DNA from: Lytechinus pictus
Lineage: Eukaryota
NCBI RefSeq assembly: GCF_037042905.1
Contig: NC_087245.1
Span: forward strand, 1,364,001-1,428,000
Direction of reading: 5' to 3'
DNA length: 64,000 nucleotides
Numbering within the stretch: the first letter of the stretch is position 1; every line of letters starts with the position of its first letter. Below the pieces are notes generated by a model that saw nothing but the letters and a program-made list of their open reading frames with translations, did not search any database and had not been told where the DNA came from. Of this stretch, positions 3,966 through 58,608 are shown piece after piece. Made by a program: the position numbers and the translations under genes.

Positions 3966-4008
3966 GAGATGAGGCCAACTCAAAAGATGACACAGGACAC
4001 CATTCTTA

Positions 4009-4046
4009 TATTTAGCTTTCGTCTTTAATAAGACTTCGTCAGAAGC
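4009..4046 (-). ncRNA. Minimal type I hammerhead, stem I weakened
   Basis: Same core and stem II as 4596-4633, but the 3' strand of stem I is AAUA rather than AAGC. Confidence 0.65.
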
Positions 4047-4595: not shown

Positions 4596-4633
4596 GCTTC
4601 TGACGAAGTCTTATTAAAGACGAAAGCTAAAGC
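4596..4633 (+). ncRNA. Minimal type I hammerhead ribozyme
   Basis: GCUU-CUGACGA-A-GUCUU(AUUA)AAGAC-GAAA-GC-UA-AAGC: full core, 5-bp stem II, 4-bp stem I, palindromic AGCU helix III. Confidence 0.8.
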
Positions 4634-5513
4634 TAAGAATGGTGTCCTGCGTCATCTTTTGAGTTGGCCTCATCTCATTATGTTTCATACTCACACCTCA
4701 AGAGCGTTTGGTACAAGTAAACTTGTCATCACATTATATATATATATAATCTTTCATAATACAGCAGCAAATATGCCTACCATTTAAAATTTTATGATAT
4801 GAATAAATGTATCTTCCCGACTGGAAAAGGGATTTGTCTTTCATCTGATATAGACAGATATTGAAGTTCCAATTTGATAAATTTCTCGTACTTTTATAAG
4901 CATTTTTTAAACTAATTTTGCTGTTTAAAAAATTTGAATATGTAACTGTTCCTTGAAGGAATATTAAATGAGAATGAATCCCTGAAACCAGTTGAAATTC
5001 ATATAAAAGAGAAAAATCAAATCAATGAAAGGTTGAGGAAGACAAAATGAATAATAAGAAAGTTATGAACATTTGAACATTAATTACGATTACTAATGCT
5101 ATGTAGATCCTCCCATTGGCAATTTCCAAAGCTCATAACATTCTTATTATTAATTCAATCTTCCTTTAAACTTTCAATAATATTTCTTTCATATTCTTTT
5201 TCACATGAAACCATCTAATTTCAAATGTTTTATTCTCCTTTAAAAAATGGGGCCTTGTAAGGTTTATTTTATTATTTCAAAAAAATCATGTTGTATTTTA
5301 TCATAAAATCAGATTCTGAAATTTCACCAGATTACAGCATGCAGTTAGAATTAGTGAATTTGAAAAAGTTAGAAAAGGTGAGTTTGTTTTGCTTCCATTT
5401 CAGGATAAGTCATTTCAGATTTTTTTTTCTTTGTAAAGTGAGATAGAAAGATGCCGCCCTTTAGATTGCTAGTTTGTTATGTCAGAATACCAATTATGAA
5501 TAGCAATAACGAA

Positions 5514-5762
5514 TCAAAGCCTGAAAACGAATGTTGTAATGAAAGCAGCCAGTATCACGGTAACCATTCCAGGGGATGATCTCGCTGCATCATCAGTGGG
5601 TGATGGATGGAAGTGACCATCATCGCCCTCATCGTCATCAGTGACCACGGAATAGATGGTGCGCAAATTACGGTCCTGAATATCACGGTAATTATCGTAC
5701 ATATGCATCTCATTGCCGTCTTCATCTACCGCTTCACTCATCAGTTGGCGCATGGTTTGCAG
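5514..5762 (-). CDS. CA exon 8: LQTMRQL...DNYRDIQ...acidic linker and hydrophobic C-terminus, stop
   Basis: T-rich tract + TAG acceptor, phase 0; ends MVTVILAAFITTFVFRL*, resembling a GPI-addition signal. Confidence 0.93.
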   Translation of the reverse strand: MQTMRQLMSEAVDEDGNEMHMYDNYRDIQDRNLRTIYSVVTDDDEGDDGHFHPSPTDDAARSSPGMVTVILAAFITTFVFRL

Positions 5763-14700: not shown

Positions 14701-17700
14701 CACGTTGTCATGCAGATATAGCTTGGAAGACACATTCTATACACAGTCAATCATTATGTTTGGTGGAAAGTTTTTCACTTATGCACAGTTTTGCTGCAAT
14801 TGATTTTCCTTTGATTTTTATTATTTAAGCTTTACTTTTCCTATTAACATTTTCGGACGGACTGAAAATATTCATCTCAAGTTCGTTGAATTCCATGAAT
14901 TCCGTGTTTTCCTGATATCCGTAATTTTTGTTGTTTTTCCGTTTTCTGAATCGCATAAAACTGTTAACTCTACTTTTAAATAATAGCAACTTATGTGACG
15001 TAGCTAATTTGTAAAAATATGCTTGCGCAGAATAGCTAATCTCTGTCTTGCGCACGTGCATCCCATCATGGTACTCATGCATGGTATGTAATTGGGCCAA
15101 TCAATATCCTGACAGAAGTTGCGTGGCAGGTCTTATATCTAGACTCACGTGCATGGCCGTTGTTTTCTACAGTCGCGTCCATGGTAACATCTTCATACGA
15201 CTCTAGATTGAATGAGGCATATTCAATATCTCGAGTCCACTTTGTGACGATGTTGATAGGTGATTGAGATGAGCCATCGCAGGAGGATCCCGGAATGTCT
15301 TTCCAAAAAGATTGATCTGGATAAAAGAGATTAATTATCATCATCATCATTATCATCATCATATCATCGTCGTCGTCGTCATCATCATCACCACCACAAC
15401 CACCATCACAGTCATCATCATCATTACCACCCACATGACCACCACCATCACACCACTGTCATCATCATCATCATCATTATCATCATCATCATCTTCATTA
15501 TCATCATCATCATTATCATCATCATCATCATCATCATCTTCTTCTTCATTATCTTCTTCTTCCTCTTCTTCTTCTTCTTAACGTGGAGGGAAGTGTCTCG
15601 TGTGAGCTCGTAAGATTTTTCGTTTTATTGGGCCTTTTCTGGTCCTATTGTTGTTATGAGTAGTATTTAGTGTTTTCTAAGGCAAAGCTTTATTTGGTCC
15701 ACCATTGTTGGGTTGTATTTTTCTGTAAAATTGTGTAATTTTCAAGTGTTTTTTTTCTTGTTGTGAGTGAAGTGGCCATGGCGGCTGATGCTGGGCGGGA
15801 GCCCCGGGACCTTCCCGGGACTTCAGCCCAACAACCCTCGGGTTTTCTACCTACCCGAGTCAGTCGAAAGAATGGTATATGTTTTGTTTCGACTCCAACT
15901 ATTTCAATTCATGATTATGTAAAGGAATTTGCTAACGCATGTGTACCAGCTGACTGTATTGTCTCGGCATCTCGCATCAGCCAACAGAGAATTGCAATTT
16001 ATTTAAATTCTCGTACGGCAGTGCTGGATGCCGTAGACAAAGGCTTTACTTTTCAGAACTCGTTTATTGAATTGTCACCACTTACTTTGCCCACTACTCG
16101 TTTGACTCTCTCGAATGTATACCCTGAAATACCCAACGATTTGTTAGTGAAACAGATTGCAGCCTTTTGTAAGGTCGTGTCACAAATTCGTTCCATTCCA
16201 TTAGGTTTCAAAGATAAACCATTTTCCCATATCTTGTCCTTTCGGCGACAGGTTCAGGTCCTTATTAATCCTAATGTTACCCCACCCGCCCATCTCGATT
16301 TCTCACTTGAGGGTGTGAATTATCGCGTCTTCGTTTCAACTGACGAAATTCGATGTTTTGAATGTGGGGAAATGGGTCACCTTAGCCGGACCTGTAAAAA
16401 GACAGACCGTCAAGGTCTTACCGAGAGAGTATCGGATAGGGGCAAGGTAGGTCCAAAACATCAACCAAAGGGATTTAAATCTCATATCACGAATAATGTG
16501 CCTCTTAATGTAGAGCCCGTTCATGGGCAGAAACAGAACATCCTCCCAGAAAGGCCCTCAAATCACGCCAATTCTGTCGGTTCTGAGGGGTCCTCTGAGA
16601 TAAACGAGTCGAATACCCCCAAATCGCCAAAGTCCTCAGAACCACTGTTACCTTTTCCTCCACCACCCACTAGACTTTTTTCTGATATTGTTGCTAAAAG
16701 GAAAAGAACTCCTTCAAAATCTTCTCCTGACACCCCGATTCTTACTCCCCTCACTTCGAAAACTCCACCAAGGAAAATGAGGAAATCACCCCCCTCTACA
16801 CCTATTTCAACAGGCCCCCCTCCTTCACCTGTCCTCCTGTCCTCTCCTGCCCCATCGTCACCTAACACCTGGTCCTCTTCAGCTCCGCCCCCACCCGGCA
16901 TCCAATCCTCTTCAGTTCCACCCTTCCCCGCCTTTCAGCCCTCTTCAGTCACTCCCTCCCCCGTTATCCAGTTCTCTTCAGCTCCTTCCTCCCCAAACCC
17001 TTCCACCCCTTCCTCGTTGTGGGATGACACCCTGTCTGACGACGATTCGGTCGATTGGGCGTCATCTTTTCCGTCAAGTCAGGGCCCTTTGTCTGACAAA
17101 GATTTGTTGAAGTTTCTAAAGACAGTCAAAGCAAGAAAAAAACCAATTGAAATTGCCCGGAAATTCACCTCGAATGTACCCGGCCTTGTTAGGCAATTGA
17201 TTCCTTTACGGAATAGTTCAGCCTTCAAGAAAAGTACCCAGCAGCGGGTACAAAAATTAATCAGAAAGTTAGAAGACTGTGCTTAGTTCTTTTTTTTACA
17301 TGCTTGGTAAGACCCTGTATGCTCTCCACCTTGCAATGACCTTGTCATTCCTCACGCTGAACACTGGAGGATGTTCTGGATCAGTGAAAACTGCCTCTAT
17401 TCATTCTTACATTGAAAATATTGCAATTAGTCCTGATGTTATTTTTCTGCAAGAAACTTATGATTTAACGCCACGTTCTTCTTGTTGGAATTTATGGAAA
17501 TCATATTTGATAAATTGTTCTTCCGGTATCTCTCGAGGTTCCGGCATAACCACCATTGTAAAGAAGAATCTTGTTGGCTCGTTTGATAGCTTAGCTATAG
17601 TTGACAGTCATATACTATATTCGAAAATTTGCATTGATGATACATTTTATCACTTGTATAATATTTTGATACCACAAGATGATAATTTTGCTTTAAAAGC

Positions 17701-20700
17701 CATTAAATCACTTCATGATCACTTGTGCACGATAAATAATGGCGTTATTATGTTAGGGGGAGATTTTAATTGTACCCTTAACCCCGCTCTTGATCGCCTG
17801 AGCATGCCAAAAGAACATAGACATAAAATCTCTACACAACTTGGGAAAACGATTGATTTTTTCACCCTTTGTGATGCATGGCGCAGACTCAATCCTTCTC
17901 AAAAAGCTTTTACCTGGCATAGGCGAAACCCACGAAGCATTCATGGCGTCTCGCGTGCAAGACTAGATCGCTTTTATCTGCCTGTTGGTCTCACCCCTTC
18001 TATTCACAAATGCGGCATTTTACCATGCTCTCTCTCTGACCACGATGCGGGTTATTTAGAATTAAAACCTCCCAAACACAAACATAGGGGAAGTGCATAC
18101 TGGCATTTCAACAACTCTTTACTTGATGACGAGAATTTCAAAAATATTATTGTACATTTTTGGACCGATTGGAGGCTTCACAAAAATGAATTTGTGAACA
18201 TTTTGATGTGGTGGGATGCTGGCAAATCCCATATTAAAAGAATTACTCAAATGTATGGAAAAAAGATAGCTGATGAAAAACGGGCTGCCTTTGTGAAAAT
18301 TAATAACACTATTGAGCAGCTCCAATCCAATTTTGTTTTGTCAAGTAATACAGAACAAGAGATAATCAGAAACAGAAAGGAACTTAATAATTTGTTAAAA
18401 TATGATGCCAAGGGTGCTTTGATTAGGTCACGCTTTAAACTAGTCCAAGAGGTTGATACGAGCTCGTCCTTCTTTTATAACTTAGAGAAGTCGAACTCTT
18501 CACGGAAAAGAATTTCTCAGATCCGCCTCCCCTCAGGACGCACCACAGTAAATGAAAATGAAATTAAGAACCATGTGTACTCTTTTTACAAGGACCTTTA
18601 TAGTTTTTCTCCCATTGATGGTATTTCTGCTGAACTTTTTTCCAACATTAAACGCTTGGATAAGGATGAACAGAAAAATCTCGATTCGCCCTTTTCAGTA
18701 GAAGAATTAACACAAACTGTCAAACAATTAGGAAAAGATAAAACACCGGGTATGGATGGCCTCACTACGGAGTTTTATCAAACTTTTTGGCCCACGTTTA
18801 AGAATGATTTCTTTGAAGTCTTACAATTTTCTATTTCAAATGGCAGTTTACCACGTTCTTTTCGTAGGGCAATCATTAGCTTGATCCCCAAAAAGGGAGA
18901 TCTTGCTGAGATTACCAACTGGCGTCCTGTCTCACTTCTTAACGTGGACTATAAAATATTTGCAAAAACCCTTGCCAGTAGATTGAAACTCTGTATTGGG
19001 AGCATTATTCATGAGGATCAAACTTATTGTGTCCCAGGTCGTACCATTTATGATAACATCATTTTAATAAGGGACATTATTCATTATGCAAATTCTGCCG
19101 ATATCCCTCTTGCCTTGGTGAATCTTGATCAAAAGAAAGCGTTTGATAATATATCTCATAAATATCTTTTTGATACAATGAAGGCAATGGGATTCGGATA
19201 CTCGTTTATCTCGAGTGTTAAGTTGTTGTATTGTCATGCAGAAAGCTTTGTTAAAGTATGTGGTTCATTAACCGCACCCTTCCATTTCCAAAAAGGGATT
19301 CGGCAAGGATGCCCTCTTTCGGGCATGCTATACTCAATAGCAATTGAACCCTTTCTCAACTTACTTAGACAAAATCTGGCCCAGTGTAATTTTAAAATAC
19401 CCGATATTAATTTGAATTTATCTGTATCGGCCTACGCTGATGATGTTACAATATTTTTATCTTCTGAAAATGGTTTTGATATTATTCAGAATGTTTATAA
19501 TACGTACAGTAAGTCTTCTAATGCTTGTTTAAATTACAATAAGTCAAAGGGCCTTTGGGCTGGATCGTGGTGTCGACGAAATGATAAACCACTTGTTTGT
19601 CAATGGAGTAACGAAGGATTAACTTTTCTTGGAGTTCAATTAGGTAACACCAATACTTATTATCAACAAAACTGGGTGATTTGTAAGGATAGACTAAATA
19701 AAACACTTTCTCGGTGGACCCCTCTTTCTAATTATTTATCATTTAAAGGCAAGATTCTCGTAGCTAACCAACTAGCTGCCACAAAAGTGTTTCATTTTCT
19801 GGCTACACTATCGGTCCCCAATCACACACTCAATGAACTCCAGGACATGTTGGTCAATTTTGTTTGGTCTAATAAACGTCATCTCATTAAGAAACAAATA
19901 TTGTCTTGTGAACCCAACAATGGTGGACTTGGTTTAGCTTCTCTCCAAGCACGAGTCCACACTTTCCGTTTCTGTTTTTTTCAACGCTTTCTTAATTTTT
20001 GCTCTCACCCTGCTTACCTACTCTGCTCTCTCAATCTTAAAAAATACAGGGGTCTAAACTTTGATTCCCAATTGTGTTTTATTGATTTAGACCCAAAATT
20101 TCTCACCAATCTGCAATGTTTTTACTCAGAATTATTAGTTGCTTGGAGGGCCTCAGGAGCTCACATTGACATTACTTCCCTCTCAGTTAATCATGTCTTA
20201 AACATGCCGCTCAATTATTTTCCTTTAATTCCCCCATCGCTAGAAGGCAGCACGGTCTTCCCTGCACGGCTCTTCGTGTGTCGAATCACGCTCATTAAGC
20301 ACATCATTGACCCCTTCAACGGCAAGTGGCGCACAGTTGACAGCCTTCAACTCCATCCAGCCTACGATGCAAGTCGTCAACGCCTTTCTCGACGTTTGAT
20401 TGGACAAGAACTTTCCATCCTGAAATATCGCCTATCTGCCATCTTCCCTACTATTTTTACTTTAGCTGGACTCAAAGCCCCTCTTCGTCCACTTTGCAGC
20501 TCACCCACCCCTTTAGTGATTAAACTGGTGAGAGGGACAGCTACAGCTGAACTATCTACAAAATATATTTATCGTGCATTGAAACGCCGAGTAAACAGTT
20601 ACGATTCATCACTTCCTTCACACTGGCATGAAAATGGAACTCTCTCAAGTAACACGAAAATTAACTGGACACAAATATATGCCCCACCTACAATTAAAAA

Positions 20701-23700
20701 AGACGGGGACATACAGTACAAGCTTCTCCACAATGTCCTACCATCTCTACCAGTACTTCATCATTTCAACAAAGACATTCCAATTCAGTGTGGATGGTGT
20801 GGTGAGACGGGAACCATCTTCCATCTCTTAATACAATGTCCGGCCATCCAACCATCACTCATCGTTCTACATCATCTAATTAAGCGTCTCATTCCGAACA
20901 TTATTATCGACTTTGAATTATACTGGGCGCTGGTTCCGCATGCTTCGGGCCGTTGCAGGGAAGCCGTGCGTTTATGTAATTTTTTGTTTATTAGTTTCAA
21001 AAGTACCATTTATTGGCTGTATCGTTCTTTGAATTTTTCAGTTCCCCTATTGGTTTGGAAATCCAAAGTGAAAAGCAGGATTCTTCTAGATTATGAGTTT
21101 CATAAGTTACAAAATAATGTCAATGCCTTCTCAAAGCGATGGTGTGTGAACAATGCTCTTTGTTCTGTCGGCACCTCTTTTGAATTAGTTTGGTCTTTTT
21201 GAATATAGGAATGTAAGCCTACCTTTACTTTACTGGTTGTGTAATGTTTTTTTTCTTGGTTTGTTTATATGAGTCCTTATTTGTACTTATAAAGTATATT
21301 ATTCTCATATTTTATTTGTATATATGTTATAGTTTGATTGTAAATAAAGTTTCATTTTGAAAAGTCAAAAAAAAGTCTTCTTCTTCTTCTCCTTCTTCTT
21401 CACCTTTACCATCGTCATGAGATTATAGAAATATCCACTACCTTCATCGCCTTAATGTTCACAATGATGATGGTGATGATTATTATTCAAACCCTTATTC
21501 ATTTTGAGGCCGTCATTACATACATCAAGCAACCCTCTCAGTGTGATGATCTGACCTGTTTTTTGTTTTATTTCCATATTATTTGTCTTGTATTTGAAAG
21601 AATGTGTTAACGTATTCATTAATTTTCTGATATATGTATGTCATGTTTTAAAACGCAGAAATTAATTAATCTAACGAACAAACAAACTTTCATATAGATA
21701 GAAAATAATTAGAAAGTAGACTGCATGACATAATAGAAGGTTATGGTCAAAATAAGAAACATTGTCAATATAAAAGGAGGAAAAATAATCATAATGAAAT
21801 TGTTTATTCACGACGCTGAAGTCGATGTCAACAATTCGACACACAAGTAAGAGGCCTGTGGCAAAGAAACCAAAGAACTCAACCAAACTAATTGTTAAAT
21901 TGAAAATATTTCATTTCTTCTTAAATTTTGTTTACCATAATTTTGTAGCTGGTGTACTTACCGGTATCACCAGCTCCTGCATAAGTCCAAGTGGAACTTG
22001 CTGAAAGATAAAGGGAAATTGATAATAAGACAATTAATTTCATTTACTTGTTCCAACTTAACCCCTCTTTCTCTTTTCCTTATACCCTGCCCCCTTTCTC
22101 CATTTTCTCTCTCGTTTCCTTCCCCTCTCCCCCCCCCCCTCTCTCTCTCTCTCTCTCAAGTCTCTTTTCTTTTCCTTTCTTTCTTTCTTACTCCAACGCA
22201 CCTGTAAAGTATGCAGCAGCAAAACATGAATTCCATATTTTCACCAAATTCAAGAATTCAGTTTATTGATTTTTTTTCTCTACAGGTGTTGATTCTCTGG
22301 AACTGGAAGGTGTGTGTGATGTGTTGTGAAATGACAGCCCCCAATTTCCCCTATCTTCAATTTGTTCATTTCGTTTATTTCCATTTCACACAATTACCAA
22401 AGTCATTTTCTGTCGTACATCATGGCTTAAAAGTAAAAAATATATACATTGAAAATGTTGAACATAGACAAGATAACAGGTTCGTAATAGATTATCATAG
22501 ATTACATGTATTTTTTTAAACCACTAAGTTGACAGTTAACATAGTAACTAACATAACTACCTTTTCTGAGAGTTTACGGGATGTCAATCCAGCATGACAA
22601 TTTTGTTTATTCAGCTTATACCACCACCCATTAAAAGGCTGCGAGACATTCATGACATTATCGGCCACTCATGATCCTTCGAATCGGATCTAACTGAAGT
22701 GCTCAATATCAGAGGCAGTGATCATACAAGGGGTATGGCCAGTGGCGTAGCTACGGGGGGCCTGGGGGGGGGGGGGCACGTGCCCCCCTGAGATTTGGTG
22801 TGCCCCCCCCCCCCCGGTGCCCCCCTGAAAAAATTGGCAGAGCAAAAAAAAAGGGAGAAAGAAGAAAAGAAAAAGAAGGGGAAAGACAGAAGAAAAAAAG
22901 AAGAGGAAAATAAGAGGAGGAAGACGAGTGAATAAAATAATGTGAGGGGAAGACTTGCAAAAAAACCCAAATCTTTCATGTTACTATATAACATTTTTGC
23001 TCGCGCTTCGCGCTCGGATTGCCTGTTCGATGAGATTCATATATTGCTCAATAGGGTGATATGGAGTCGCCATGTATGTTGCTGCATATATGTTCTTTAT
23101 TCAGAATGTGTTTGAATTATCCAGTATGAGATCAGAACTTTTATCAATAATTTTCTGCTCGCGCTTCACGCTCGCATTATAAATGATACCCAATTAACCA
23201 CATCCTATTCATGATTTACAAAATATCAATAGAGTGTCCCGTTTTTATAAGAGTCAATCTAAGAAGTGACCGATCGGGGAAATATATAGGTGTAGATAAT
23301 TTCGGCTCCCCCCCCCCCTTATTGGCGAAAGTCGGATTGGCCCTTGTGACACGCACAGAAAAAAAAATGTTGCCCCCCCCCCCTGAAAAAGCAAGGACCC
23401 CCCAGTGCCCCCCCCCCCCCAGGAAAAAAGTCCTTGCTACGCCACTGGGTATGGCGCAATTTTATGATTTTCTATGAGTAAAATATAGAGGGGGAGCAAA
23501 GGATAAAAAAGATAGGTCTCTATAGACAGAACCTAATTTTAATGATTGTATTATTATATGGTGAGTGTGATGGTGTACGCGTATGTGTGTGCGTTATATG
23601 TCGTGTTTTCTTTACATGTTGTTTATCTATGATGACGATGATGATGATGAGTGATGATGATAAGTGATGATGATAAGTGATGATGCATGATGATGATGAT

Positions 23701-26700
23701 GATGATGGTGGTGGTGATGATGATGATGATGATGAGTGAAGATGATAAATGACGATGCATGATGATGATGATGGTGGTGATGATGCATGATGATGATGAT
23801 GGTGGTGATGATGCATGATGATGATGATGGTGGTGATGATGATGATGGTGGTGATGATGATGATGATGATGAGTGAAGATGATAAATGACGATGCATGAT
23901 GATGATGATGGTGGTGATGATGATGATGATGATGAGTGAAGATGATAAATGACGATGCATGATGATGATGATGGTGGTGATGATGCATGATGATGATGAT
24001 GGTGGTGATGATGCATGATGATGATGATGGTGGTGATGATGATGATGGTGGTGATGATGATGATGATGATGAGTGAAGATGATAAATGATGATGATGATG
24101 ATGATGATGATGATGGTGGTGATGATGATGATGATGATGAGTGAAGATGATAAATGACGATGCATGATGATGATGATGGTGGTGATGATGCATGATGATG
24201 ATGGTGGTGATGATGCATGATGATGATGATAATGATGATGATGATGATGGTGGTGATGATGATGATGATGAGTGAAGATGATAAGTGATGATGATGATGG
24301 TGGTGATGATGCATGATGATGATGATAATGATAATGATGATGATGATGATAAAGAAGAAGATGATGATGATGATGATGATGATGATAATGATAATGATGA
24401 TGATAAAGAAGAAGAAGAAGAAGATGATGATGATGATGATGATGATAATGATGATGTTTATGGCGATGATGATGGTGTTGGTGGTGTTATTGGTTGGTGG
24501 TGTTATTATATAGGGATTTTTCATTAATGGCATGTGACAAGTTAAGGTTTATAGTTTATACAAGAGAAGAGATGTTTCGGAGGGATATAGGGAATATGTT
24601 CCAAAGACGGGGGCAAGATATAGAACGGATGGAGGGTTGATCTCTGTTGCTGAAATAGTGAAGAAATGTAAGAAGGAAGTGTGGTTGACAGAGATTTATA
24701 AGTTTGAACAAGACGGCATTCGATAATGAAGTTCATTTAGTATAGGGGTAGCATTATGACACCATTTTTGGTTTTGACATATTAAGCGTGATCATTTATT
24801 CATAAGGTGTTGAAGTCTTCCTGTATAGATATTCTGTATATTTCCAACTTATCATTTGATTACAATTCGTAATTATTTGTATAAACTTAACTTTTTTTTG
24901 TATTATCACCTGTTAATAATTATGATTATTATGTTTTATGTATTATTCATGTACATGTATACTAAGATTGGGTGCCTTTTACTTTGTACATTTTATTCAT
25001 GGCACGGCCCCAATACAAATCAGACTCTGTATCTGTTTGGGTTTTTTACCGTGTGAAAATAAAATTTATCTATCTATCTATCTTGTTTACTAATATCCCC
25101 AAGCAAGCACCCACCGTAGTCAAGCATGGAGGGCACACGTGCTGTCCTAACAATTAAAGTTATGACATGTGTCCTTATCTAAGAAACTCCTGATGCGATT
25201 GAGATTGTAGATTTGCCCGTTGAGCGGAGTACGACACAAGTTTGTTACATGTTCGGTCATTTTCATGGTAGAAGATATGGAAATATTTATGTCATTAATA
25301 TAGGTTCATGGAACGGATTGAGGTGTGCAGGAGATGCAGTAACAGTTAAAGAACTCTGTTTTGCTACAACTTTACTTACGAATTGTAGACACAGGTCTAT
25401 ATAACTACCTAAACTTGTGTAATAAAAGAACTATCTGTAAAACACCAGTAGACATTGACAGATTCAGGATACGTGAAAGTACTGGGAGTAAAACAGACAA
25501 TTGCTTCTTAATCGGCCAAGAAAGCATTGGAATGCAAGATTTAGAAGAAAAGATTGAAAAGCATACGTTGTAAGACAGGGGCGGCGGAACCGAGGGCAGG
25601 GGGCACTTGCCCCACCCCCCCCCCCCTTCCTCGTAGGAAAAAAATTCCTTTTTTCAAAATGGAAAGTGCCTTTTTTTTTATAGTAAAACATAATACATTT
25701 TAGGTTAGAATATCACAAAATTTCTGGCTCGCGCTTCGGGCTCGCATGATGATGATGGTGGTGGTGGTGGTGGTGAGTTAGAGTGGTGGTGATGATGATA
25801 ATGATGATGGTTGCTAGTAGTGGTGGTGATCATGATTTTGTTTCTTCAAGTTCATACGCATTGAAGGGTTGGTATTTAGCTTGAACATCCCACCCACATC
25901 TTATACTTTCACCCTTTTCGTGGGAATATTGTGTTCTGGTGAGACACCTACACGTATCAAAACTCGATGAAAACATCTGCTCTCTATATTAAACATTTTA
26001 CATCTCTATTCTTTCAGGATTTGAATCCAATTTAGTTTTTGAAAGGTCATGTCAATATGTTCACCCATCGATTCAACCTGTGAGAGAAATCGTGCTTGTC
26101 TGTTTTCTATTCTTCAATTTTTGAATATTTGGCAACTGTTGATAAATGCAGACTTTCACGTGAATTTAGTGTTAGTATGTTGAATGTTCTATGCGTGAAG
26201 CGATGTTGTATGTCCATGAAAAAAATTAATAATCGCTTGCTAGTTAGCCCTGCTTGATGTTCTCTTCACTTCATTATGAATAAATATCAATTTATATAAC
26301 TACTTTTATAATTATGATTAGGCTATATCAAATATAGGAAGCACATGTAGGTTTACTGCAGATACTGCATTTTGGCGATACGGAAAACAATGATTTCTCG
26401 ATTTTTTTTTTCGTCATAAAACTTAAAGGGATGGTCCGGGCTGAAAATATTTATACCTTAATACATAGAGTAGAATTCACTGAGCAAAATGCCGAAAATT
26501 TCATCAAAATCGGATAACAAATAATAAAGTTATTGAAGTTTAAAGTTTAGCAATATTTTGTAAAAACAGTCATCATGAATATTCATTAGGTGGGCTGATG
26601 ATGTCACATCTCCACTTTCTGTTTTCTTATGTTATTGCATAAAATCATATTTTTTTCATTATTTCATATTTGTGTGAATAATATGTCTCCCTTATAATGA

Positions 26701-29700
26701 AATAAGTTGCAGCAATAAATATCTAATGCACTAAATCAGTTGTCAATCCAATTTTTCTAGTTCTTGGAGGAAAAAAATTGAATAAACCTAATTTCATATA
26801 ATAAAATACAAAAGAACAAGTGGAGATGTGACATCATCAGCCCACCTAATGAATATTCATGATGACTGTTTTCAAAAAGTATTGCTAAACTTTAAAATTC
26901 AATAACTTTGTTATTTGTTATCCGATTTTGATGATATTTTCGGCATTTTGCTCAGTGAATTCTACTCTATTTATTAGGCTATTCATACTTCCAGCCCGGA
27001 CCATCCCTTTAATGTTCCAAATGACAAAGAGTTTGATATAGATAATGTTAGCGATATGGTGTAGAACTTAATTGATTACACTCCCCTACTACACTCCCCT
27101 ACCTCAATGTGATGATCAATATTTCTTTTGTCATTACAGACAGTACTTGATTGAATAGGTAGGCACAAAGTTGAGATCATTCAGATAAAATCCAGACATC
27201 GATATCTGTCGTCACGTGACGCGATCGAGATCAACGAGGTATAGGCCTATACCACTGATTGTTGAAACGGCGACAGGTTGTTCATAGTTTTGATGTTAAA
27301 CGCGCTAGTATAATCTCACACTCTACAACACTCCACATAATACCAGAATGATGATACAGTCATACTTCTTGAAAGCCCCCCCCCCCCCCCCTTACGGAAA
27401 ATGAAATATCTCACAAATTTGACAATAACAATTACAAGAAAATATATATATTCACACTTTTTGCTGTAGATAATCTAAGCGTGTACTATGTAGGCCTATT
27501 GGTGAAGAGTATAATGCATTTTGAGTTTGCAAATAATTGCATGGAAATAATTATGATCATTATAATTATATTTAAAAAATGGTTTCACATAGAAGTAATG
27601 CCGAAAATTTGTTTACAAATTATAATTTATTTTATTAAATCGCTGTCCGGAAAGCAGTAAATAACAGGTTCGAATCCCACTGGTTCCAATTTTTTCTGAC
27701 TTATGATTTTCATTACAAATCGAGCATGCGATCTTCAACACATAGGAGTTATGCCGAAAATTTGTTTACAAATTACAGTAGTTTCATACAGCAATATGAG
27801 TTTTCAAATATAAAATAGGAAATCTGAAAGAAAAATGAAATAATCGGTGGTTGTCGCAGTGCCGTAGAAGAAGGCCTATACTCCAAAGCATTTTAAGATC
27901 ATTCGAAAATAATATTAAGCATCTCGTGGGTATTTGTAAGAATTGCATGCACGAAAAATCCTTAGAAAACTTTGGGAAGCTTAAACTGTGTCAGGGACAA
28001 TAATCATTTGATAAGGATCCGTGTCACCACTCTAGAGTAATACTGGCGACAGGGACATCATGTACAAAGACCTAATTTGTCCTAATGTCATTCTTTCAAA
28101 TCCACAACTAGATTCACTTTGAGATGATCTTCTATCGTGTCATTTACATACCCTCATTCTTCTCATTAACGCGATATCACTTATCACCATCTTTGATATG
28201 ATGTAATTATAGTCTTCTTAATTTATTTGTTAGTGACAAATGAACAATAAACTTTTCTTCACTAGTTCTTTTCCAGACTTCATGGAAAAAGTTCGAGCCT
28301 TACGTCTTCGTGATGACATTAAAGGTTGTTCCCTGATGTAAATACTCATAACTGATTGAAGCACGTCTGTAAATTACACAATTACGCATTTAGCATTCGA
28401 ATACTTTTTATACCTTTTTTCTTTCTTTGCTCTGTCATCATTTTGTTCCCTTTTAAAGTTAAAAATCTTAATAAAACATTTTTTTCGATTAATTATTTTG
28501 AACTAAAACAATCCTGAGGGAAAAAGATTAATTTGTGTATTGTATTTACGTTGTAACTCAAAATATTAGAATACAGTACATCTACATGCCAATAAAACAT
28601 CGTTTGCAAAAATAGGAATATATTGGCATTCGATCATGAGTCTCTGTCAACGAAGATTTATTTTGCTTTATCCCCATCCAAAGGAAATTGATGAGTTCCA
28701 AACAAGACATTACACCACCACACCCCCCCCAAAAAAAAAAAATTACATCAATATAAAACATATTATACCCACATACAATCATCAATATTATATTGTATGC
28801 TCGATGTTGTGATGTAAGTAGCCCGCTAATAGGCTTTCAACTAAATGCATTCGTTGTCTATTCAAGGACAAAGTTAATACCAAGTTGAGTGATATTATTA
28901 TTCGGGTAAGAAATAAGTGGGTAGAGATACACGGGGTAGGTGCGTATGAGGGCCGAGGTACAAACGGTGCCCTATTTATGATTTTCTGCAACTGAGCGAG
29001 GAGAGCGAGCCAAAAATTATACAAATTTATTTTGTTGGAATTGTGTGGGTTTTTTTCTCGCTTGCTCGTATTAATTCTCTTATTTTGTTCAAATCAGTCA
29101 TATTTCGGGGAGGGGGCGTTGTATAATAACGATTAATTGCCATTTGAGGAAATTGAGTATCTGAATATAAAAACGGCCCAAGTCCAATTTTGGGCGAAAT
29201 TGAGTTAAATATGGGAAAATGTTCCTTATACAATGACTTATCTTGTGTATAAATGATAAATCTGAAATCATCTCAGAAATGCCCTAAATAAAGGAGGAAA
29301 CTTTAGTATGAGTGTAAGAAAAGCCCAAGTCTAGGACTTGGGCTTTTCTTATATTCATACCATAGCGCCCTCTCTCATTACTTGTACTACTTACTACACA
29401 CAACTGGGCGTTGTGGCGTGCGCCTGTAATCCAAGCTGTGGGGAAGTTACAAATTGATGCAGAGGTTCGAGCCCTGGTCACGTCTCTCGGACGGTGACGT
29501 TAAAGGTCGGTCCCAGACGTAAATAATCATATCTGATTGATACACGTCTGACAAAACTCAAATACACACACACACACACACACACACTGTAAAAAATTTC
29601 CGAATCAGTATTTGACACTTAATGTATTTAAATAAGTAAAATTTACAATTTGTAATTATTTTTCGTTTTTTTAAGTAGTTTTAACTTGTCTTTTAATTCA

Positions 29701-44600: not shown

Positions 44601-47600
44601 CATTTCGGTACTGAAAGAAATGAAGCAAAATAGATCACCTGGAAATGATGGGTTTACAGTTGACATGGTTGAATTGTATTGTACATTTGGACTGAAATAA
44701 AGGATGTATCGATAGGGGCATTCAATGACGCCTTTGCTCTGGGGAACTTTCTGTATCACAAACACAAGCAATCATTTTCTTATTAGCTAAAGAAGGGAAA
44801 GACCCACATTACGTAAAGAATTCTAGACCCATTTCGTTATTAAATATAGATTATAAGATTATATCTAAAGTTTAAAAAACGAATTAAAGAGGTTTTGGAG
44901 AACGTTTTACAAACAGATCAAATAGGATTTATTAAAAACAGGAATATAGGAGAAGCAATCAGAATAATTGATGATATGCTGTTTCATACGTTATATAATA
45001 ATATCCCTGGGTTTATGATGGTAATTGATTTAGAAAAAACCTTTGATTCGATATCCCACAGATTTTTACATCAAACATTAGTTTCATTCGGTTTTTTTAA
45101 TTTATATATGTGGCATCTCTCACATCAATGATGAACTTGATCAGTTGGCTTTTACTTTTTTGTGGGGTGGGAGAAATAAGATGAACAAAAGTACGATGTA
45201 GTTAGATTACCACCAAAGCGACTTGAGAATGATGAATTTTCAATGGTTAATAAAGGCACATGCAGAGAGTTATGTGTAGTAAAAGACTAAAAGAAAATAA
45301 TGCAATGAAATGGAAACAATATTTCAATTATGCCACAAAACACATGGGAGGAAATTGTATATTTTCTTGCGATAATTTGCTTGGATTGTTGGAGATAGCA
45401 TTGCCTCAATGAATATAGACTTGTTAGAAGTATGGATAGATACGAAGGACTTTTGATTTAAATCTGAAACATTTAAAGGAAATTATATATTTTTACAATA
45501 AATTTGAAACTAATGACAAGGTTGAACAACTCCAGGATCTGCTCAACACTCAATATAGACGACACTTTCAGTTGGTAACCTTCAAGCAACGGCCGAACGA
45601 CAAGCCATGGATGAATAGCCGAATTCGCAGTCTCATCGTTAAGCGAGATAGAGCTTTCAAACAGAAAGCCGATTCCTACAAGTCTCTACGAAACGAAGTT
45701 CAAAGAGCCATAAGATCATCTAAAGCAAATTTCTACAAAACTAAGGTTGCTAATTTGATGGACTCCGAACCAGGGAAATGGCATCAGCAGATTCGCACCC
45801 TGAGTGGACTCCGCAAACAAGAAGCACCCCTCTTTGCTGGTGATATATCTCCACTAGATTTGGCCAATGACTTGAACTCATTCTTTTCTGGAATCTGCTC
45901 AAGGCTTCCTCCTTTGGACACTTCTAAACTGAGTGCTTACTTACCAGCACCAGTTTCACCACCGGTGATCCAACGTTATGAAGTGTATAAACGCCTGAGG
46001 CAGCTGAATACATCTAAAGCCGGGCATCCAGCTGATTGTCCAACACGTCTCCTGAAGGAATTTGCTTTTGAGATATCTGAGCCATTAACTGAAATCTTCA
46101 ATGAGTGTCTTGACAAAGGTTACTTTCCGACGCTATGGAAGAGAGCATCGGTGTGCCCAATACCTAAGGGTCCTCGGGTCACCGACGTTGACCAACTTAG
46201 ACCGATTTCAATAACACCTATCATTGCCCGACTGTTTGAAGGATTCCTCGCAGGATGGATCATGGATGACATTTATCATACTGTCGATCACAAACAGTTT
46301 GGCAATATGAAGGGAAGTTCTCTGAATCACTACCTAATCAGCATGCTTGATACCATAGTCAAGGGCCTTGATCAGCAAGGACGTATCGCCAATTTGTGTG
46401 CTATTGACTTTCGCAAGGCTTTTGACCATATCAACCATACAATTTTGATCGAAAAACTGATTAGGATTGGTGTTGATCGATCTATCATTCCAACGATATG
46501 TGACTTTTTGTCCTGCCGTTCACAGGCTGTTCGATACAGAGGGACAACTTCTGCTCAACTTAACATCACCTGTGGTGTTCCACAGGGCACGAAACTGGGC
46601 CCGATCCTATTTCTCGTCATGGTGAATGATGTTGCCTGCTCCACGGAGAATCGATGGAAATACGTTGATGATCTTAGCCTTGTTGAGGTTGTCAGAAAAG
46701 ATCAATGTTCTGGCCTACAGCATGATGTTGACTCACTGGTTGATTGGTGCAACGATAATGACATGAAGCTGAATGCTGCAAAGTGTAAAGCAATGCAAAT
46801 CAGCTTTCTCCGTACGAATCCGCCTCCTCTACAGCTTAGGATTGATGATACGGACTTGGAAATCATGACATCTATTAAATTACTTGGTGTCATCATACAA
46901 AACGACCTGAGATGGGAACTGCATGTTCGTCAAATCATCAGCAATGCTTCTCGTAGGCTGTTCATTCTTAATAAGCTGAAGAGAAATGGCGTGATGTGTC
47001 CGGAACTTGTCACGATCTACAAGATGTACATCAGGCCATTGATTGAGTTTGCCGTGCCTGTTTGGGCATCTAGCATTACCTGCCAACAATCCGCTAGCAT
47101 TGAGCGGGTTCAGAAGAGGGCTCTGCGAATCATTGCCTGGCCAAATGTCTTGCCATACATTGAACTTCTACAAAGTATGAATGTGTCATCTCTTAAAGAC
47201 AGACGGAGTGAACTTGTTGAAGGATTTGCACGCTCGTTGCTAAAATCGAAACGACATCGCCACTTCTTGCCTGAAACCCGTAGGGTTAGAACTGGTCTTT
47301 CCCTAAGAAATGCACATCATCTTGAGATTCCTCGGACTAGAACAAAAAGATACCAACAGTCGCCAATCCCCCACTTTGTGCAATTGTTGAACTCTGTAAT
47401 ATAATGTAATTTTATATACATTTTTATTGTTTTTAGTAACTGTAACACTTTTTGTACTCCCCTTTATTGTTTATCTTTAATCTTATTGATTTTATGTTAG
47501 GTTTGTCACCTTTTTATTCCAATGTTCTTTTTTTACTTACTTGAGTTCCACCTACATGTAATATAACTATTCTATCAGTAATTTTGCCCAACTTTAATAA

Positions 47601-50600
47601 TTTTTTGGTTCGTTTATCTTTTTTTTTACTATAAAGCATACAGTACCGGTCACGTTTCTTTGGCTACCTGTTTGCCTGTTTCGGCCGGGGAACAAAGGAT
47701 TCAGTGCACTGAATTTGTTCTCTGGTTTAGGCAGGCGAACGGGTGGTCAAGGGATTGTGACTGGTGGTGTACTATCTACAGTATATCACATGGTTAATTT
47801 CAGACTTCATACCAATCTATTGTAACATCGTATTTATTTCTCTTTAGTTTTATGACTGTCATACATGTATTCTCAAACTAATTTGAAATTGCAATTAATC
47901 ACAAATTACATTGATCTGGTTTATATTTTTTTGGTCTTATAATTATATTATTCAATTTGTCTTGCTATTTACACATTTTTTTATATACATATTTTCTTCT
48001 TTTGAATATGATGATATTTTAAAAGTGTAAATGTTAATTTATATATGTTTTTAATACTCGCAACTTTGCTGATTTAATTTTGACGATCATAGTTTTACAA
48101 TGTATTAATTTCAATCAATTTTAATCTTTTTTTGAGATTGTGAAAAATTATTTTTTCTGGCTTTATTTGTTGATTATTTGTCTAGCACTAGAATTGTGAT
48201 ATATTGTAATCTTTTAATAATATACATGTACATTTTTACTTTGTAAATATGATAATATGAGTCTTCGGACTTTTGTCATGTACCATTTTCACAATAAAAC
48301 CAGAATTGAATTGAATTGAATTGAATTGAACGAATTGAAGGGAAATGCATATTTGACCAAAAATTATATGAAAAAATATTTACAGATTGAAACATATTTT
48401 GGATTATGATGGAAACTTAAGATTATTTTCATACTTCCAAAGACAGGGATTAAACATAAATGATTTTCATTTGATAGAGACAATTTATAAAACTATTCCA
48501 GTCAGCTGGAAACGAAATATGAAAATAGATAACAAAGAGGCTTCTCTAAGGGAAGAAATATCGTTTATATCTGGAAAAATAATTTTATCAATAGATGAGT
48601 TAGTATCTAAAAATGTTTATGAAAATTTTATGAAATGTAACTTCGCAATACCTGATGTTTTCGAAAGGTTTAAAAACAAATATAGTTTCACTTATGAAAA
48701 GATTGAACACATTTTTATGACACCAAGACAATGTACACTGAACAGCAGATTAAGAGAGTTTCAATTTGATATGTTGCACGCATTGATTATGATAATCACC
48801 ATTTGTTCCGTTTTAAAATCTCTCAAAATAATCTTTGTTGTTATTGTAAAAAAAAAGAAGAGGAAACTTATCGCCATCTATTTAGGGAATGTGAATATGC
48901 TTGTTTGGTGTTTGGTTTGGAATAATATTGTAAGGAGATGTTTGGTTATATATCTATGGGTAATTTAAGCTGGGAGAAAATTCTTGTAGGTGTAGAATTA
49001 AGGATGAAGGAAAGGAACGTTTAGTCAATCATTTTGTAATCTTTGTAAAAATTTTAATTTTCAAAGGGAGGGAAAAGGCCGCACTCATAACCATTGATGA
49101 TATTAAAAGGAAATTCAAAGAAGAGGAATGTGAAGAAAAAAAGGCTGGTGTTAGGTAAAGGCAAGATGTCTCTACATTTAAGGAAATGTGAAAATCTAAA
49201 TTAAAGGAATATATAGGGAGAGAGAGGCAGAGGTATATATACAGCGAGATACAAAACCACACAAAAAAACACAATTAAACAAAAACACTTGTTTCTCTTT
49301 TTTTTGCAGAAAAAACATGAATATAATACGGGGAATTGGAGTCCCTTCCATGTAGAGTAGACATAAAGGGGAGGGTGCTGTGTACCTGGGGAGGGGGGGG
49401 GGTGGGAGGTAGAACATTTCTTTTTTATCATTTTTTTTCTCTATTGACATTTAGTACATCTTGTTAATATTTCATTTTGGAATTGTTGAAACGCATCAGT
49501 ATTAATTTCCGGTTTCTTTGAAGTTTGATGTATAATATATTTTGGGATATGGATTTATTGTATAATTTCTTAGTATAATTCATAATCGTGTTTCAAATAA
49601 TTTGTACAACTTGTTCATGAAATATAATGTCTATTTGATTTAAGAGAATACAATAAAAACATCCTTAAAAAAATATAGGTCGATAGCATTGTTACCAAAC
49701 TTTTCAAAGATTCTTGAGAGAATGATTTATGAACGTTTAAATTAGTTTTTATCTTTTAAGGACCAGTAAAAATAATATCGAAGGAATGATCGGAAGCACT
49801 ACAGATTCACTAATTTCTTCCGTACAATCAGGCGCGGTTTTAGGGGGGTGGCTTTGGGGACTGAAGCCCCCTAAAAATCGCTCATGTCCCCCCCCCAAAA
49901 AAAAAAAACTGTATATATAGGTCCTATATATGTCGTCAAGTGCCCTAAAATCAAAGTTTTTAGTATTCAAATTTTCACATTTTCTCGCTCGGTCGCTAAA
50001 CGCTCCCTCGCAAAATATAATCTAAGTGAAGAATACGTTAATTCTCTCTTAAAGTGTGAGTATAGGAAATCAATAATCTATTGCAATAGGCTATAGTAGA
50101 CTGCCTTGCAGCTTTTCCCCCCAAATTAATCTCCCTTTGTATATACTTCACCCACCACGAAATGCCATAAAATTGAAGTTTAAATTCTAAACCTGTCGTA
50201 TTTTGTCAAAAGCGCTCCGGCGAAATTTTGTAATGTCATTCTTTATTCTTTTGGATATTTTTCTTTAGAAAATATCTCTGTCGCTATATACTCCCTTTTG
50301 ACGCTAAACTTATTGAAAACATAAAGTTTAGAGTCAGTAGTGCTGATCCATGTTTTGGATGGCGAGAGGGGGTAAAGACAATGTCCAAATATTTCGGCGC
50401 GCCAAGTTATAATGCAGAATTTTGCACGTGAAACTCATCGAAAAGTTTACAATTTTATATGTTTGACGGTATTTTCATGTCAAGTCTGATGGTTTTATAG
50501 CGGTTTAAGACGTTTGTCAAACACAATTTTGCAATGGATTCTTAAATTTTTCAATCTGTCAAAATTATTGGGCAGGGCACACCGATATGTTTGCCGCATC

Positions 50601-57218: not shown

Positions 57219-58608
57219 AAAACGAAACCGAGATTAAGCGATGATTTATCATAACTTAATCACACATATAATAGACAAATGACCTACCAATGTAAAGCTT
57301 AGAATCTCCCCTTTCATCTGATATTACTTAGAGTATTCCTCATTCACGCATGAGTGAGCAAAAACAATTTGAACAAAGGATACCAAAAAGTCATTTGGCG
57401 GGGGGTATCTGAATTTCAAAAAGAAAATCACATGCCTAAAAAGTTCAATATCTGCTCTTTTATTTGATACCTTAATCACAAAAAATGGTCAAGAAGTAAA
57501 AAAGTTATGTTACCTCGGAACAATGCTTGTATTTCCATAATTTCATTAAATAAACGTGTTTTCACCGGTTTTCCACAGAAGCTATCGCATGGTTAACAAA
57601 AGACTTAAAGGGATGGTCCGGGCTGAAAGTATGTATAGCTTAATAAATAGAGTAAAATTAACTGAGCAAAATGCCGAAAATTTCATCAAAATTGGATAAC
57701 AAATAACAAAGTTATTGAATTTTAAAGTTTAGCAATATTTTGTTAAAACAGTCGTCATGAATATTCATTAGGTGGGCTGATGATGTCACATCTCCACTTG
57801 TTCTTTTGTATTTTATTATATGAAAATAGGTTTATTCAAATTTCTTCCTCCAAGAACTAGAAAAATTGGATTGTCAACTGATTTAGTGCATTAGATATTT
57901 ATTGCTGCAACTTATTTCATTATAAGGGAGACATATTATTGACACAAGTATGAAATAATGAAAAAAATATGACTTTATGTAATAACATAAGAAAACGGAA
58001 AGTGGAGATGTGACATCATCAGCCCGCCTAATGAATATTCATGACGACTGTTTTCACAAAATATTGCTAAACTTTAAACTCCAATAACTTTATTATTTGT
58101 TATCCGATTTTGATGAAATTTTCGGCATTTTGCTCAGTGAATTCTACTCTATGTATTAAAATATAAATATCTTCAGCCCGGACCATCCCTTTAATGCATG
58201 GCTGATCGTCAACAAAACGGAGTGTCAAGTGAGTTTGAACACTTGCCTGTAGAACCTCTTCATTTTATGAAATTATTGAAATTCAAGCCTTATTTCAAAT
58301 AACCAGAACTTTGTTATTTCTCGACCATTTTCTGTAATTGAGGTATCAAATTAAAGAGCAGATATTGAACTTTTTGACAATGTGGTTTTCTTTTTGAAAC
58401 CCAGATACAGCCCGCCAAATGACTTTTTGGTATCCCTTCTTCAAATTGTTTTTGCTCACTCATGCGTGAATGAGAAATAATCTAAGTAATTTCAGATGAA
58501 AGGGGAGATTCTAAGCTTTACAATGGTAGGTAATTTGTCTATTGTATTTGTGATTAAGTTATGATAAATCATCGCTTAATCTCGTTTTCGTTTTTCTGGG
58601 ACGCACTG
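57219..58608. mobile_element. Tc1/mariner-like palindromic MITE hosting the 57609 insertion
   Basis: About 300-bp inverted arms; right end CTGGGACGCACTG followed by TA; left tip missing. Confidence 0.75.
57609..58190. mobile_element. Second 582-bp copy of the same MITE, opposite orientation
   Basis: Same TIRs and TTAA TSD; interior is the reverse complement of 26427-27008. Confidence 0.9.

What the first reader, a model, noticed from the sequence alone, without database searches (positions are those of the whole stretch)
47639..47771. 133-nt hairpin with 15 G.U pairs and no A.C pairs in a young LINE 3' UTR
Seen (hand-paired): 58 ungapped positions give 40 Watson-Crick pairs, 15 G.U, 3 other mismatches and 0 A.C, plus a short apical stem; it is a GC-rich island in a very AT-rich UTR. 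Neutral decay of a DNA palindrome should give G.T and A.C about equally, so the asymmetry points to the plus-strand RNA. Inference: either selection for an RNA stem (localisation signal, RT recognition, small-RNA precursor, or wobble pairs that avoid dsRNA sensing), or a fossil of ADAR A-to-I hyperediting fixed by reverse transcription.
Basis: partly seen in the sequence, partly recalled or inferred. Interest (0 to 1): 0.75.

Follow-up and report, generated by a model that had tools for sequence, protein, structure and literature searches.

The report
Editing-scarred hairpin carried by a LINE
A jumping gene carries in its tail a long RNA hairpin in which about a quarter of the pairs are G-U wobbles, likely because RNA editing turned A into G and the element copied those edits back into DNA; a distant relative has an unrelated hairpin of the same kind, so editing may leave heritable marks in such elements more often than is recognised.

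Summary
Confirmed: 58 ungapped positions give 40 Watson-Crick, 15 G.U, 3 other and 0 A.C; the window's DNA inverted repeats give 30 G.T: 37 A.C. The stem folds far better on the LINE sense strand (z -16 versus -5). It belongs to the LINE family: no empty site among 267 DNA contigs, and most wobble Gs appear shared by high-copy relatives. In a diverged relative all 8 visible transitions are A where the window has G, so the wobbles likely came from A-U pairs. A LINE of about 42% protein identity (L003) has an unrelated hairpin at the same place (33 G.U: 2 A.C) with Kolobok-MITE-like ends. Best reading (0.5): a captured inverted repeat, A-to-I edited in LINE RNA and fixed by reverse transcription. 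Against: ADAR's avoidance of a 5' G is absent (6 of 13 converted versus 47 of 99 overall). Selection for an RNA stem is the main rival (0.33). No function is shown. The scan noted a similar case in another LINE of this genome (e1-7810917, unchecked).

The parts
45510..47404 (+). 5'-truncated ORF2 of an APE/RT-type LINE (RT domain and C-terminus, no stop or frameshift); start approximate
   Evidence: Frame 45440-47404; RVT_1 E 4e-26. Relatives 56-72% identical carry an endonuclease domain; named relatives are from Diadema, Antedon, Strongylocentrotus and Branchiostoma. Likeness to P0002 begins near residue 24, by eye.
47405..48302 (+). AT-rich 3' UTR, about 900 nt
   Evidence: flank GC 0.23 and G/(G+C) 0.44
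47639..47696 (+). 5' arm of the long hairpin; begins TA then CAG; holds 7 Gs of G.U pairs
47697..47713 (+). 3-nt bulge, apical stem and 4-nt loop; variable in length and sequence among relatives
   Evidence: insertions and loose ends at 47704-47715
47714..47771 (+). 3' arm of the long hairpin; ends in TA; holds 8 Gs of G.U pairs
48247..48281 (+). Small terminal stem-loop with a UUCG loop; candidate RT-recognition element (inferred from position)
   Evidence: -11.9 kcal/mol, z -2.85, 1 of 200 shuffles as good
48293..48339 (+). AATAAA followed by a (GAATT)n microsatellite tail, the LINE 3' end

Best explanation
The segment is a 58-pair hairpin carried in the 3' UTR of this LINE family, predicted to fold much better on the LINE's sense RNA, and its G.U pairs are likely A-U pairs of an older near-perfect inverted repeat that were A-to-I edited in the LINE RNA and written into DNA by the LINE's reverse transcriptase. 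Steps: (1) an inverted repeat, probably a small DNA transposon, entered the UTR of a master element (inferred). (2) Transcripts fold into long dsRNA, an ADAR substrate (fold predicted; editing inferred). (3) Inosine is copied as G at retrotransposition, so edits pass to all descendant copies, and further ones add up in later rounds (inferred; two more Gs separate this copy from the majority form in organism B). (4) A few G.U pairs later became G-C, so the stem grew richer in G+C (inferred from two sites). The outcome is a stem that pairs well as sense RNA but poorly as DNA or antisense RNA. Whether the element gains anything from it is open.
For: (a) Skew 15:0, with Gs on both arms, against 30:37 in DNA repeats; the flanks have no G-over-C skew (0.44). 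(b), run X22: loose-end consensuses and table 3, compared by eye, show a relative with 15 differences over 52 stem positions. All 8 transitions are window G / relative A (47648, 47654, 47663, 47670, 47689, 47724, 47730, 47731), and none of 9 visible wobble Us is C. If these reads were the opposite arm laid in reverse, 9 of 11 transitions would still be window G / relative A. (c) Reverting G.U to A-U gives 38% G-C pairs, like the window's long inverted repeats (0.34-0.42); reverting to G-C gives 65%. (d) The share of As converted would be 0.44 here and 0.49 in L003. (e) In DNA run X11 only 3 places show G>A, so most wobble Gs appear shared by high-depth contigs, while 47663 and 47689 are A in 1071 of 1141 and 3165 of 3227 depth. 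(f) L003 (42% identity over the C-terminal query) has a hairpin at the same UTR position: 59 WC, 33 G.U, 2 A.C, 5 other in a strand-blind alignment, with no sequence likeness to this one. It is bounded by TTAA on both sides with an AG start, as T2/Kolobok MITEs are (PMC6004289, passages). (g) A.C is not scarcer relative to transversion mismatches than in the controls (2:8 versus 37:69, p 0.49), so the counts need no purifying selection. (h) Hyper-editing of repeats is common in sea urchin (PMC5625713 and PMC9989829, passages).
Against: The strongest ADAR signature is missing. Six of 13 As with a 5' G would have been converted, against 47 of 99 overall; 5' U is not favoured (11 of 28); 3' G is only weakly enriched (12 of 47 versus 5 of 52, p 0.06). 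Both papers report strong 5' G depletion across animals. The two most recent-looking changes (47663, 47689) both follow a G, and a UAG site (47729) stays A. Some wobbles alternate with G-C: C at 47726 in X21 and X11 loose ends, T at 47736 in 428 of 1219 depth of X11. A two-sided change (47696 with 47714) cannot come from ADAR. No free, unedited copy was found in the window or the 80 loci. The relative in (b) is known from two 30-letter consensuses of 4-5 reads, its partner arm is mostly unseen, and it lacks the TA-CAG start. Sense-strand editing was not seen in RNA: A>G at 3 places in X21 and 0 in X22, positions not shown. L003's UTR flanks are themselves G-skewed (0.78).
Confidence: 0.5

Rival explanations
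1. The hairpin is a selected RNA element of the LINE transcript. Ordinary mutation supplies changes and selection keeps those that still pair, through the A-U / G.U / G-C route. Likely uses are binding a dsRNA-binding protein for export, localisation or stability, or keeping an RNA stem while erasing the DNA and antisense inverted repeat that would draw silencing.
For: All 6 stem substitutions listed in table 3 keep pairing (47659, 47663, 47669, 47689, 47736, and 47696 if taken with the A at 47714 seen in loose ends of three runs). Two positions that are A in the relative (47670, 47724) are G-C pairs here. Transversion mismatches are rare: 3 of 18 here and 5 of 40 in L003, against 69 of 136 in controls (p 0.01 and 9e-6). 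No ADAR 5' signature. The window's LINE, L003 and L005 fall in one 24-row clade (SH-aLRT 99, quick tree) and all carry sense-strand G.U-leaning stems (L005: 18:5 and 13:4). G:U hairpin transgenes escape self-silencing in plants (PMC9263138, abstract).
Against: Three other clade members with DNA in hand (L001, L006, L007) have UTRs of about 110-210 nt and no long stem, so it is dispensable. The hairpins share no sequence. The relative in X22 shows no wobbles of its own in the visible part, which equilibrium stem evolution would predict. A.C is not specifically purged. Rarity of transversions also follows from a burst of A-to-G on a young palindrome. 36 variant rows were not shown, so the 6 of 6 is a partial count. 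G.U spacing is no more even than random (p 0.36).
Confidence: 0.33
2. A decaying DNA palindrome under strand-biased mutation or arm-to-arm repair, with no role for RNA pairing or editing.
For: The UTR is T-rich on the sense strand (T/(A+T) 0.64) and L003's UTR is G-skewed. The two-sided change at 47696/47714 could be an arm-templated correction. As DNA the + strand still folds (-34 kcal/mol).
Against: The window's flanks are not G-skewed (0.44) and ORF third positions are even (0.49). Ten DNA repeats in the same window are balanced. Arm-to-arm copying would remove wobbles rather than collect them.
Confidence: 0.1
3. An independent MITE inserted into this one LINE copy after retrotransposition, with the skew a chance result.
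For: TA at both ends and a CAG start; 4 RNA reads of X21 run into a different 5' flank at 47641.
Against: No joint skips the hairpin in any of 4 runs. X11 contigs span 47633-47792 and 47456-47657, joining it to UTR on both sides. A DNA-only history cannot give 15:0. TACAGT is common in the window (24 seen, 12 expected).
Confidence: 0.04

Closest known systems
ADAR hyper-editing of repeat-derived dsRNA in animals (PMC5625713, PMC9989829; passages read)
   Same: Long intramolecular duplex in a repeat; one-strand A-to-G pattern on both arms; editing of repeats documented in sea urchin
   Different: Here the changes are in genomic DNA and appear shared by a transposon family; the 5' G depletion that those papers report is not seen
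A-to-G hypermutation of an inverted repeat fixed in retroviral proviral DNA
   Same: Editing of a retroelement RNA duplex written into DNA by reverse transcription
   Different: A non-LTR element, natural and family-wide, apparently accumulated over several rounds rather than in one laboratory replication cycle (recalled)
3'-terminal stem-loop of stringent LINEs such as eel UnaL2 (PMC1636434, abstract; PMC3747384, passages)
   Same: RNA stem in a LINE 3' UTR
   Different: Those are short (36-nt construct), lie in the conserved 3' tail and are needed for retrotransposition. This one is 133 nt, about 530 nt upstream, absent from short-UTR clade members, and a separate small stem-loop lies beside the tail.
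T2-MITE / Kolobok and Tc1-mariner-type MITEs (T2: PMC6004289, passages; TA and CAG ends of Tc1-mariner recalled)
   Same: Short near-palindromic element with target-like ends: TTAA and AG in L003, TA and CAG here
   Different: Arms no longer match as DNA (longest Watson-Crick run 7); it moves as part of the LINE; no free copy or transposase found
Engineered G:U hairpin transgenes of plants (PMC9263138, abstract)
   Same: An RNA duplex kept by wobble pairs while the DNA inverted repeat is broken
   Different: Made by C-to-T changes in one arm by design; here apparently A-to-G on both arms, natural, effect untested

Membership tests
ADAR-edited duplex fixed by reverse transcription | Transitions on one strand only, on both arms of a duplex | tested here: met
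   15 G.U, 0 A.C; 7 and 8 Gs per arm
ADAR-edited duplex fixed by reverse transcription | Unedited relative has A at the changed positions | tested here: inconclusive
   8 of 8 visible transitions are window G / relative A in X22, but from two 30-letter consensuses of 4-5 reads, unrooted; C/U alternation also seen at 47726 and 47736
ADAR-edited duplex fixed by reverse transcription | Depletion of G 5' of edited A | tested here: not met
   6 of 13 versus 47 of 99 overall, window and L003 pooled. The chance of 6 or more is 0.008 at an assumed rate of 0.15 and 0.08 at 0.25. Small sample.
ADAR-edited duplex fixed by reverse transcription | Editing seen in sense transcripts against DNA of the same animal | not testable with these tools
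   No matched DNA, library direction not given, about 20-fold depth
Tc1/mariner-type MITE (features recalled) | TA duplication and inverted repeats starting CAG | tested here: inconclusive
   TA at both ends and CAG at the left; right end differs at two positions; motif common in the window; the relative in X22 lacks this start
Tc1/mariner-type MITE (features recalled) | Free copies with other flanks, or empty sites | tested here: inconclusive
   No empty site in 4 runs; one other 5' flank in 4 reads; no copy in window or 80 loci; no genome held
T2/Kolobok MITE (for the L003 hairpin) | TTAA target and terminal AGGRR | tested here: inconclusive
   TTAA at both ends; the 3' end reads AGGAG inward, the 5' end differs at one base (definition); no free copy found
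Stringent-LINE 3'-terminal recognition stem-loop | Lies in the conserved extreme 3' tail | tested here: not met
   About 530 nt upstream of AATAAA; another stem-loop at 48247-48281
Stringent-LINE 3'-terminal recognition stem-loop | Required for retrotransposition | not testable with these tools
   Needs an assay; L001, L006 and L007 lack it
Known Rfam families | Covariance-model match | tested here: not met
   No match over the hairpin at E up to 10; none over the L003 or L005 hairpins at E up to 1
miRNA or endo-siRNA hairpin precursor | Discrete small RNAs from the arms | not testable with these tools
   No small-RNA run listed
CR1/L2-group LINE (Crack, L2 or kin; features recalled) | Placement among named Repbase clades by RT tree | not tested
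   No named references available; APE plus RT in relatives, microsatellite tail and terminal stem-loop fit the group

The most novel reading that the evidence does not exclude
A clade of marine-invertebrate LINEs has repeatedly captured inverted repeats into its 3' UTR and, with host ADAR as the mutator and its own reverse transcriptase as the recorder, turned them into wobble-rich stems. These pair only as sense RNA and are now kept by selection: an RNA module for export, localisation or stability that is hidden from DNA-level and antisense repeat surveillance.
Probability: 0.22. Interest if true: 0.8.

Novelty: new variant of a known kind. Interest (0 to 1): 0.55.

Why it matters
If the best reading holds, RNA editing acts as a heritable, directional mutator on LINE lineages. 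Any duplex carried in a LINE RNA would drift from A-U to G.U (and on to G-C), stay invisible to DNA inverted-repeat finders, and record past germline ADAR activity that can be read from genome sequence alone. The prediction is easy to test on any assembly: palindromes inside LINE transcripts should be G.T-skewed on the sense strand, and the same palindromes outside should be balanced. If the stem is also selected, it is an undescribed kind of cis-element of LINE RNA. Ten literature searches of an open-access library found no report of such a hairpin in a LINE 3' UTR; subscription journals and Repbase Reports are not covered.

Tried and rejected
No genome is held, so copies could not be aligned directly. 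Rfam gave nothing over the hairpin. No second copy in the window by blastn, nor in the window or 80 loci with a matrix that lets G match A (best scores 36-41.5, close to shuffled-query scores of 27.5-46.5). Viral contigs held no relative. My recalled lead that Eulor5/6 hairpins are Crack 3' UTRs was wrong: PMC5753468 files them as Crypton DNA transposons (passages). PMC5786205 on SINE middle bodies mentions no hairpin (passages). Former CpG sites do not explain the wobbles (5 of 15 versus 5 of 21; L003 10 of 32 versus 8 of 26). The first neighbour test showed 3' G enrichment, but 5' G was raised too; re-reading neighbours under the editing hypothesis removed most of it. Two numbers are not relied on. 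P(at most 1 of 14) counts retained Us that say nothing if the relative also has G.U. The clade Fisher test is confounded by UTR length and contig ends, and used 48 where 49 rows lay outside or unplaced. Palindromes in L058, L071 and L076 lie beyond the LINE's AATAAA and tail in the two loci read (L071, L058; L076 not read) and are not UTR cases. 27 of 80 loci had under 150 nt of UTR or downstream DNA and were not folded. The tree is the quick one; the careful search did not finish. No RNA holder was listed on record. No host exon was found near the LINE (128 frames scanned), so the source of the RNA reads is unknown. Hajjar and Linial 1995 is not held. No supplements were read.

Full report
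Observation. The count is exact: 58 ungapped positions from 47639/47771 inward give 40 Watson-Crick pairs, 15 G.U, 3 other mismatches and no A.C. The wobble G is on the 5' arm 7 times and on the 3' arm 8 times. As RNA the + strand folds at -90.1 kcal/mol (z -16.0) and the - strand at -40.3 (z -5.2); as DNA -34 and -17. Ten DNA inverted repeats of the same window give 30 G.T, 37 A.C and 69 other mismatches, so both the skew (p 6e-5) and the rarity of transversion mismatches (3 of 18, p 0.01) stand out. The p values are not corrected for selection by eye. The flanking UTR has GC 0.23 and no G-over-C skew (0.44).

Setting. The hairpin lies 235-367 nt behind the stop of an unbroken RT frame. The copy is 5'-truncated near 45510 and ends in a small UUCG stem-loop (48247-48281, z -2.85), AATAAA and (GAATT)n. 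It sits among remnants of older LINEs. Named relatives are from sea urchins, a crinoid and amphioxus, and many relatives carry an endonuclease domain. I place it in the CR1/L2 group from recalled features; no named clade was tested. Rfam has no match. No genome is held.

Is it part of the LINE? One read-laying run covered 47100-48360 with two raw RNA runs (X21, X22) and one contig set (X1) of organism A and a DNA contig set of organism B (X11), at 82% likeness. No joint skips the hairpin in any run. X11 contigs span 47633-47792 and 47456-47657. Summed contig depth over most of the hairpin (1789-5905; 611 in the first bin) is at or above that of the ORF (929-1954) and mostly above the AT-rich flanks (335-1932); this is no copy number. 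Only 3 places in X11 show G>A, so most wobble Gs appear shared by the high-depth family. At 47663 and 47689 the majority has A (1071 of 1141, 3165 of 3227), giving A-U where this copy has G.U. 36 variant rows and 75 loose-end rows were not shown.

Where did the wobbles come from? A few RNA reads (5 in X22, 7 in X21) come from a more diverged relative. Compared by eye, the two X22 loose-end consensuses plus table 3 cover 52 stem positions with 15 differences. All 8 transitions are G in the window and A in the relative; two of its transversions repair window mismatches (47655, 47728); none of 9 visible wobble Us is C. If the reads were the opposite arm laid in reverse, 9 of 11 transitions would still run the same way. 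That the 5' and 3' loose ends belong to the same reads is inferred from matching read counts. Two of the 8 sites (47670, 47724) are G-C pairs in the window, which suggests A-U to G.U to G-C. Against a pure A-to-G story: 47726 is C in X21 and X11 loose ends, 47736 is T in 428 of 1219 depth of X11, and 47696/47714 appears to have changed on both sides. Counting only differences seen at wobble-forming sites gives 6 A/G against 2 C/U, which alone is not significant. Reverting wobbles to A-U gives 38% G-C pairs, typical of the window's long inverted repeats; reverting to G-C gives 65%.

The ADAR context test fails. Pooling this stem and L003, 6 of 13 As behind a G would have been edited, against 47 of 99 overall; 5' U 11 of 28; 3' G 12 of 47 versus 5 of 52 (p 0.06). 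PMC5625713 and PMC9989829 (passages) report strong 5' G depletion in all animals examined. The sample is small, and repeated rounds or later G.U-to-G-C changes could blur the signal (the two G-C sites have 5' U contexts), but that rescue is inference. It is why I hold the editing reading at 0.5.

Recurrence. A metagenome scan returned the best 80 of 291 distant relatives (30-49% identity). Folding 53 loci with 150 nt or more behind the stop found sense-strand, wobble-rich long stems only in L003 and L005. L003 has a 776-nt UTR with an (AATTG)n tail and a 91-pair stem 198-408 nt behind the stop. A strand-blind arm alignment gives 59 WC, 33 G.U, 2 A.C, 5 other; z -7.3 on + and -0.4 on -. Its UTR flanks are G-skewed (0.78), which may contribute. 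L005 has two weaker stems (18:5 and 13:4), and its tail is not in the contig. The hairpins share no sequence with the window's. In a quick tree of 91 rows all three fall in one 24-row group (SH-aLRT 99) but need three separate gains or losses; the other members with DNA (L001, L006, L007) have short UTRs and no long stem. So 3 of 6 carry one. The L003 stem is bounded by TTAA on both sides with an AG start, like the window's own repeats I2 and I3 and like T2/Kolobok MITEs (PMC6004289, passages). The window's stem is bounded by TA with a CAG start, as recalled for Tc1/mariner, but that motif is common here (24 seen, 12 expected) and the diverged relative lacks it. No free copy of either was found. 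Unrelated sequences with transposon-like ends at one tolerated site fit repeated capture of inverted repeats. An earlier AI note on this genome (e1-7810917; unchecked) reports a MITE inside another LINE with about 60% A-to-G. It prompted me to weigh editing more seriously and to run the re-read neighbour test; it is not independent support.

RNA. In X21 and X22 (60 and 52 reads laid) depth is essentially zero over the ORF end and peaks near 20 on the hairpin, mostly with first mates on +, which in most stranded libraries means RNA antisense to the LINE. In those reads only, T>C appears at 47659 (8 of 18, 7 of 21) and 47669 (13 of 21, 16 of 20), absent from X1 and X11. Both are wobble Us, that is A.C mismatches in an antisense fold, in AAG and CAG contexts. 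T>C is the commonest class in both RNA runs (12 places against 3 A>G; p 0.035). This looks like present-day A-to-I editing of antisense RNA, but alleles or near-identical copies would look the same. It says nothing about a function of the sense hairpin.

Mechanism and rivals. Best: captured inverted repeat, edited in the LINE RNA, fixed by the LINE's RT and inherited by the family (0.5). Shown: the skew, sense-strand folding in silico, presence in other copies, a second case. Inferred: capture, editing, stepwise accumulation. Main rival: selection for an RNA stem (0.33), favoured by the 6 listed stem variants that keep pairing, the two-sided change and the missing ADAR context; disfavoured by dispensability, lack of sequence conservation, and no specific loss of A.C (p 0.49). 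The two can both hold. Strand-biased DNA decay (0.1) and a private MITE insertion (0.04) fit poorly. RT recognition as in UnaL2 (PMC1636434, abstract; PMC3747384, passages) is unlikely by position. A stealth benefit has an analogue in plant G:U hairpin transgenes (PMC9263138, abstract) but is untested here.

Novelty. Ten searches found no account of wobble-rich long hairpins in LINE 3' UTRs or of edits fixed in a LINE master lineage; subscription journals and Repbase Reports were not searchable. Other papers seen: PMC5753468, PMC5786205 and PMC6757416 as passages, the rest as listings only; no supplements. Verdict: real, family-borne, recurrent; a new variant of a known kind; interest 0.55.

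Noticed in passing
window 47659 and 47669: T>C in 33-80% of one read direction in two RNA runs, absent from two contig sets; both are A.C mismatches in the antisense fold, so possibly live A-to-I editing of antisense RNA, or polymorphism.
   Followed up: partly
window 47440-48000: Ribo-depleted RNA reads pile on the hairpin with none on the ORF end; 4 reads continue into a different 5' flank at 47641, hinting at a free or differently flanked copy.
   Followed up: partly
window 15739-21202: Apparently full-length two-ORF LINE with both frames open: ORF1 515 aa with a zinc knuckle, ORF2 1309 aa with endonuclease and RT.
   Followed up: no
window 8062-15458, minus strand: Three exons of an alpha carbonic anhydrase gene, directly beside the two-ORF LINE.
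   Followed up: no
window 26423-27012, 57605-58194, 4053-4590: Two copies of a MITE with TTAA ends and a shared AGGG start (T2/Kolobok-like), and a 538-nt element with 246-nt arms 99% complementary.
   Followed up: partly
L071:3006-3097 (a matching stem in L076): 92-nt hairpin just behind a LINE tail with 34 WC, 5 A.C and 0 G.T on +, i.e. wobbles on the opposite strand; weak miRNA-family Rfam hits far below gathering score.
   Followed up: partly
L003:3400-3505: G-rich imperfect repeat with many GGG runs in the LINE 3' UTR behind the hairpin; possible G-quadruplex.
   Followed up: no
P0002, P0006, P0008, P0010: Full-length relatives of this LINE protein begin with a hydrophobic, signal-like leader by eye, echoing earlier notes on signal-like leaders in LINEs of this genome (e1-7881389).
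   Followed up: no
window 23520-24548: Three overlapping minus-strand frames of 276-342 codons in a strongly G-skewed stretch, probably a tandem repeat; no Pfam match for the longest.
   Followed up: no
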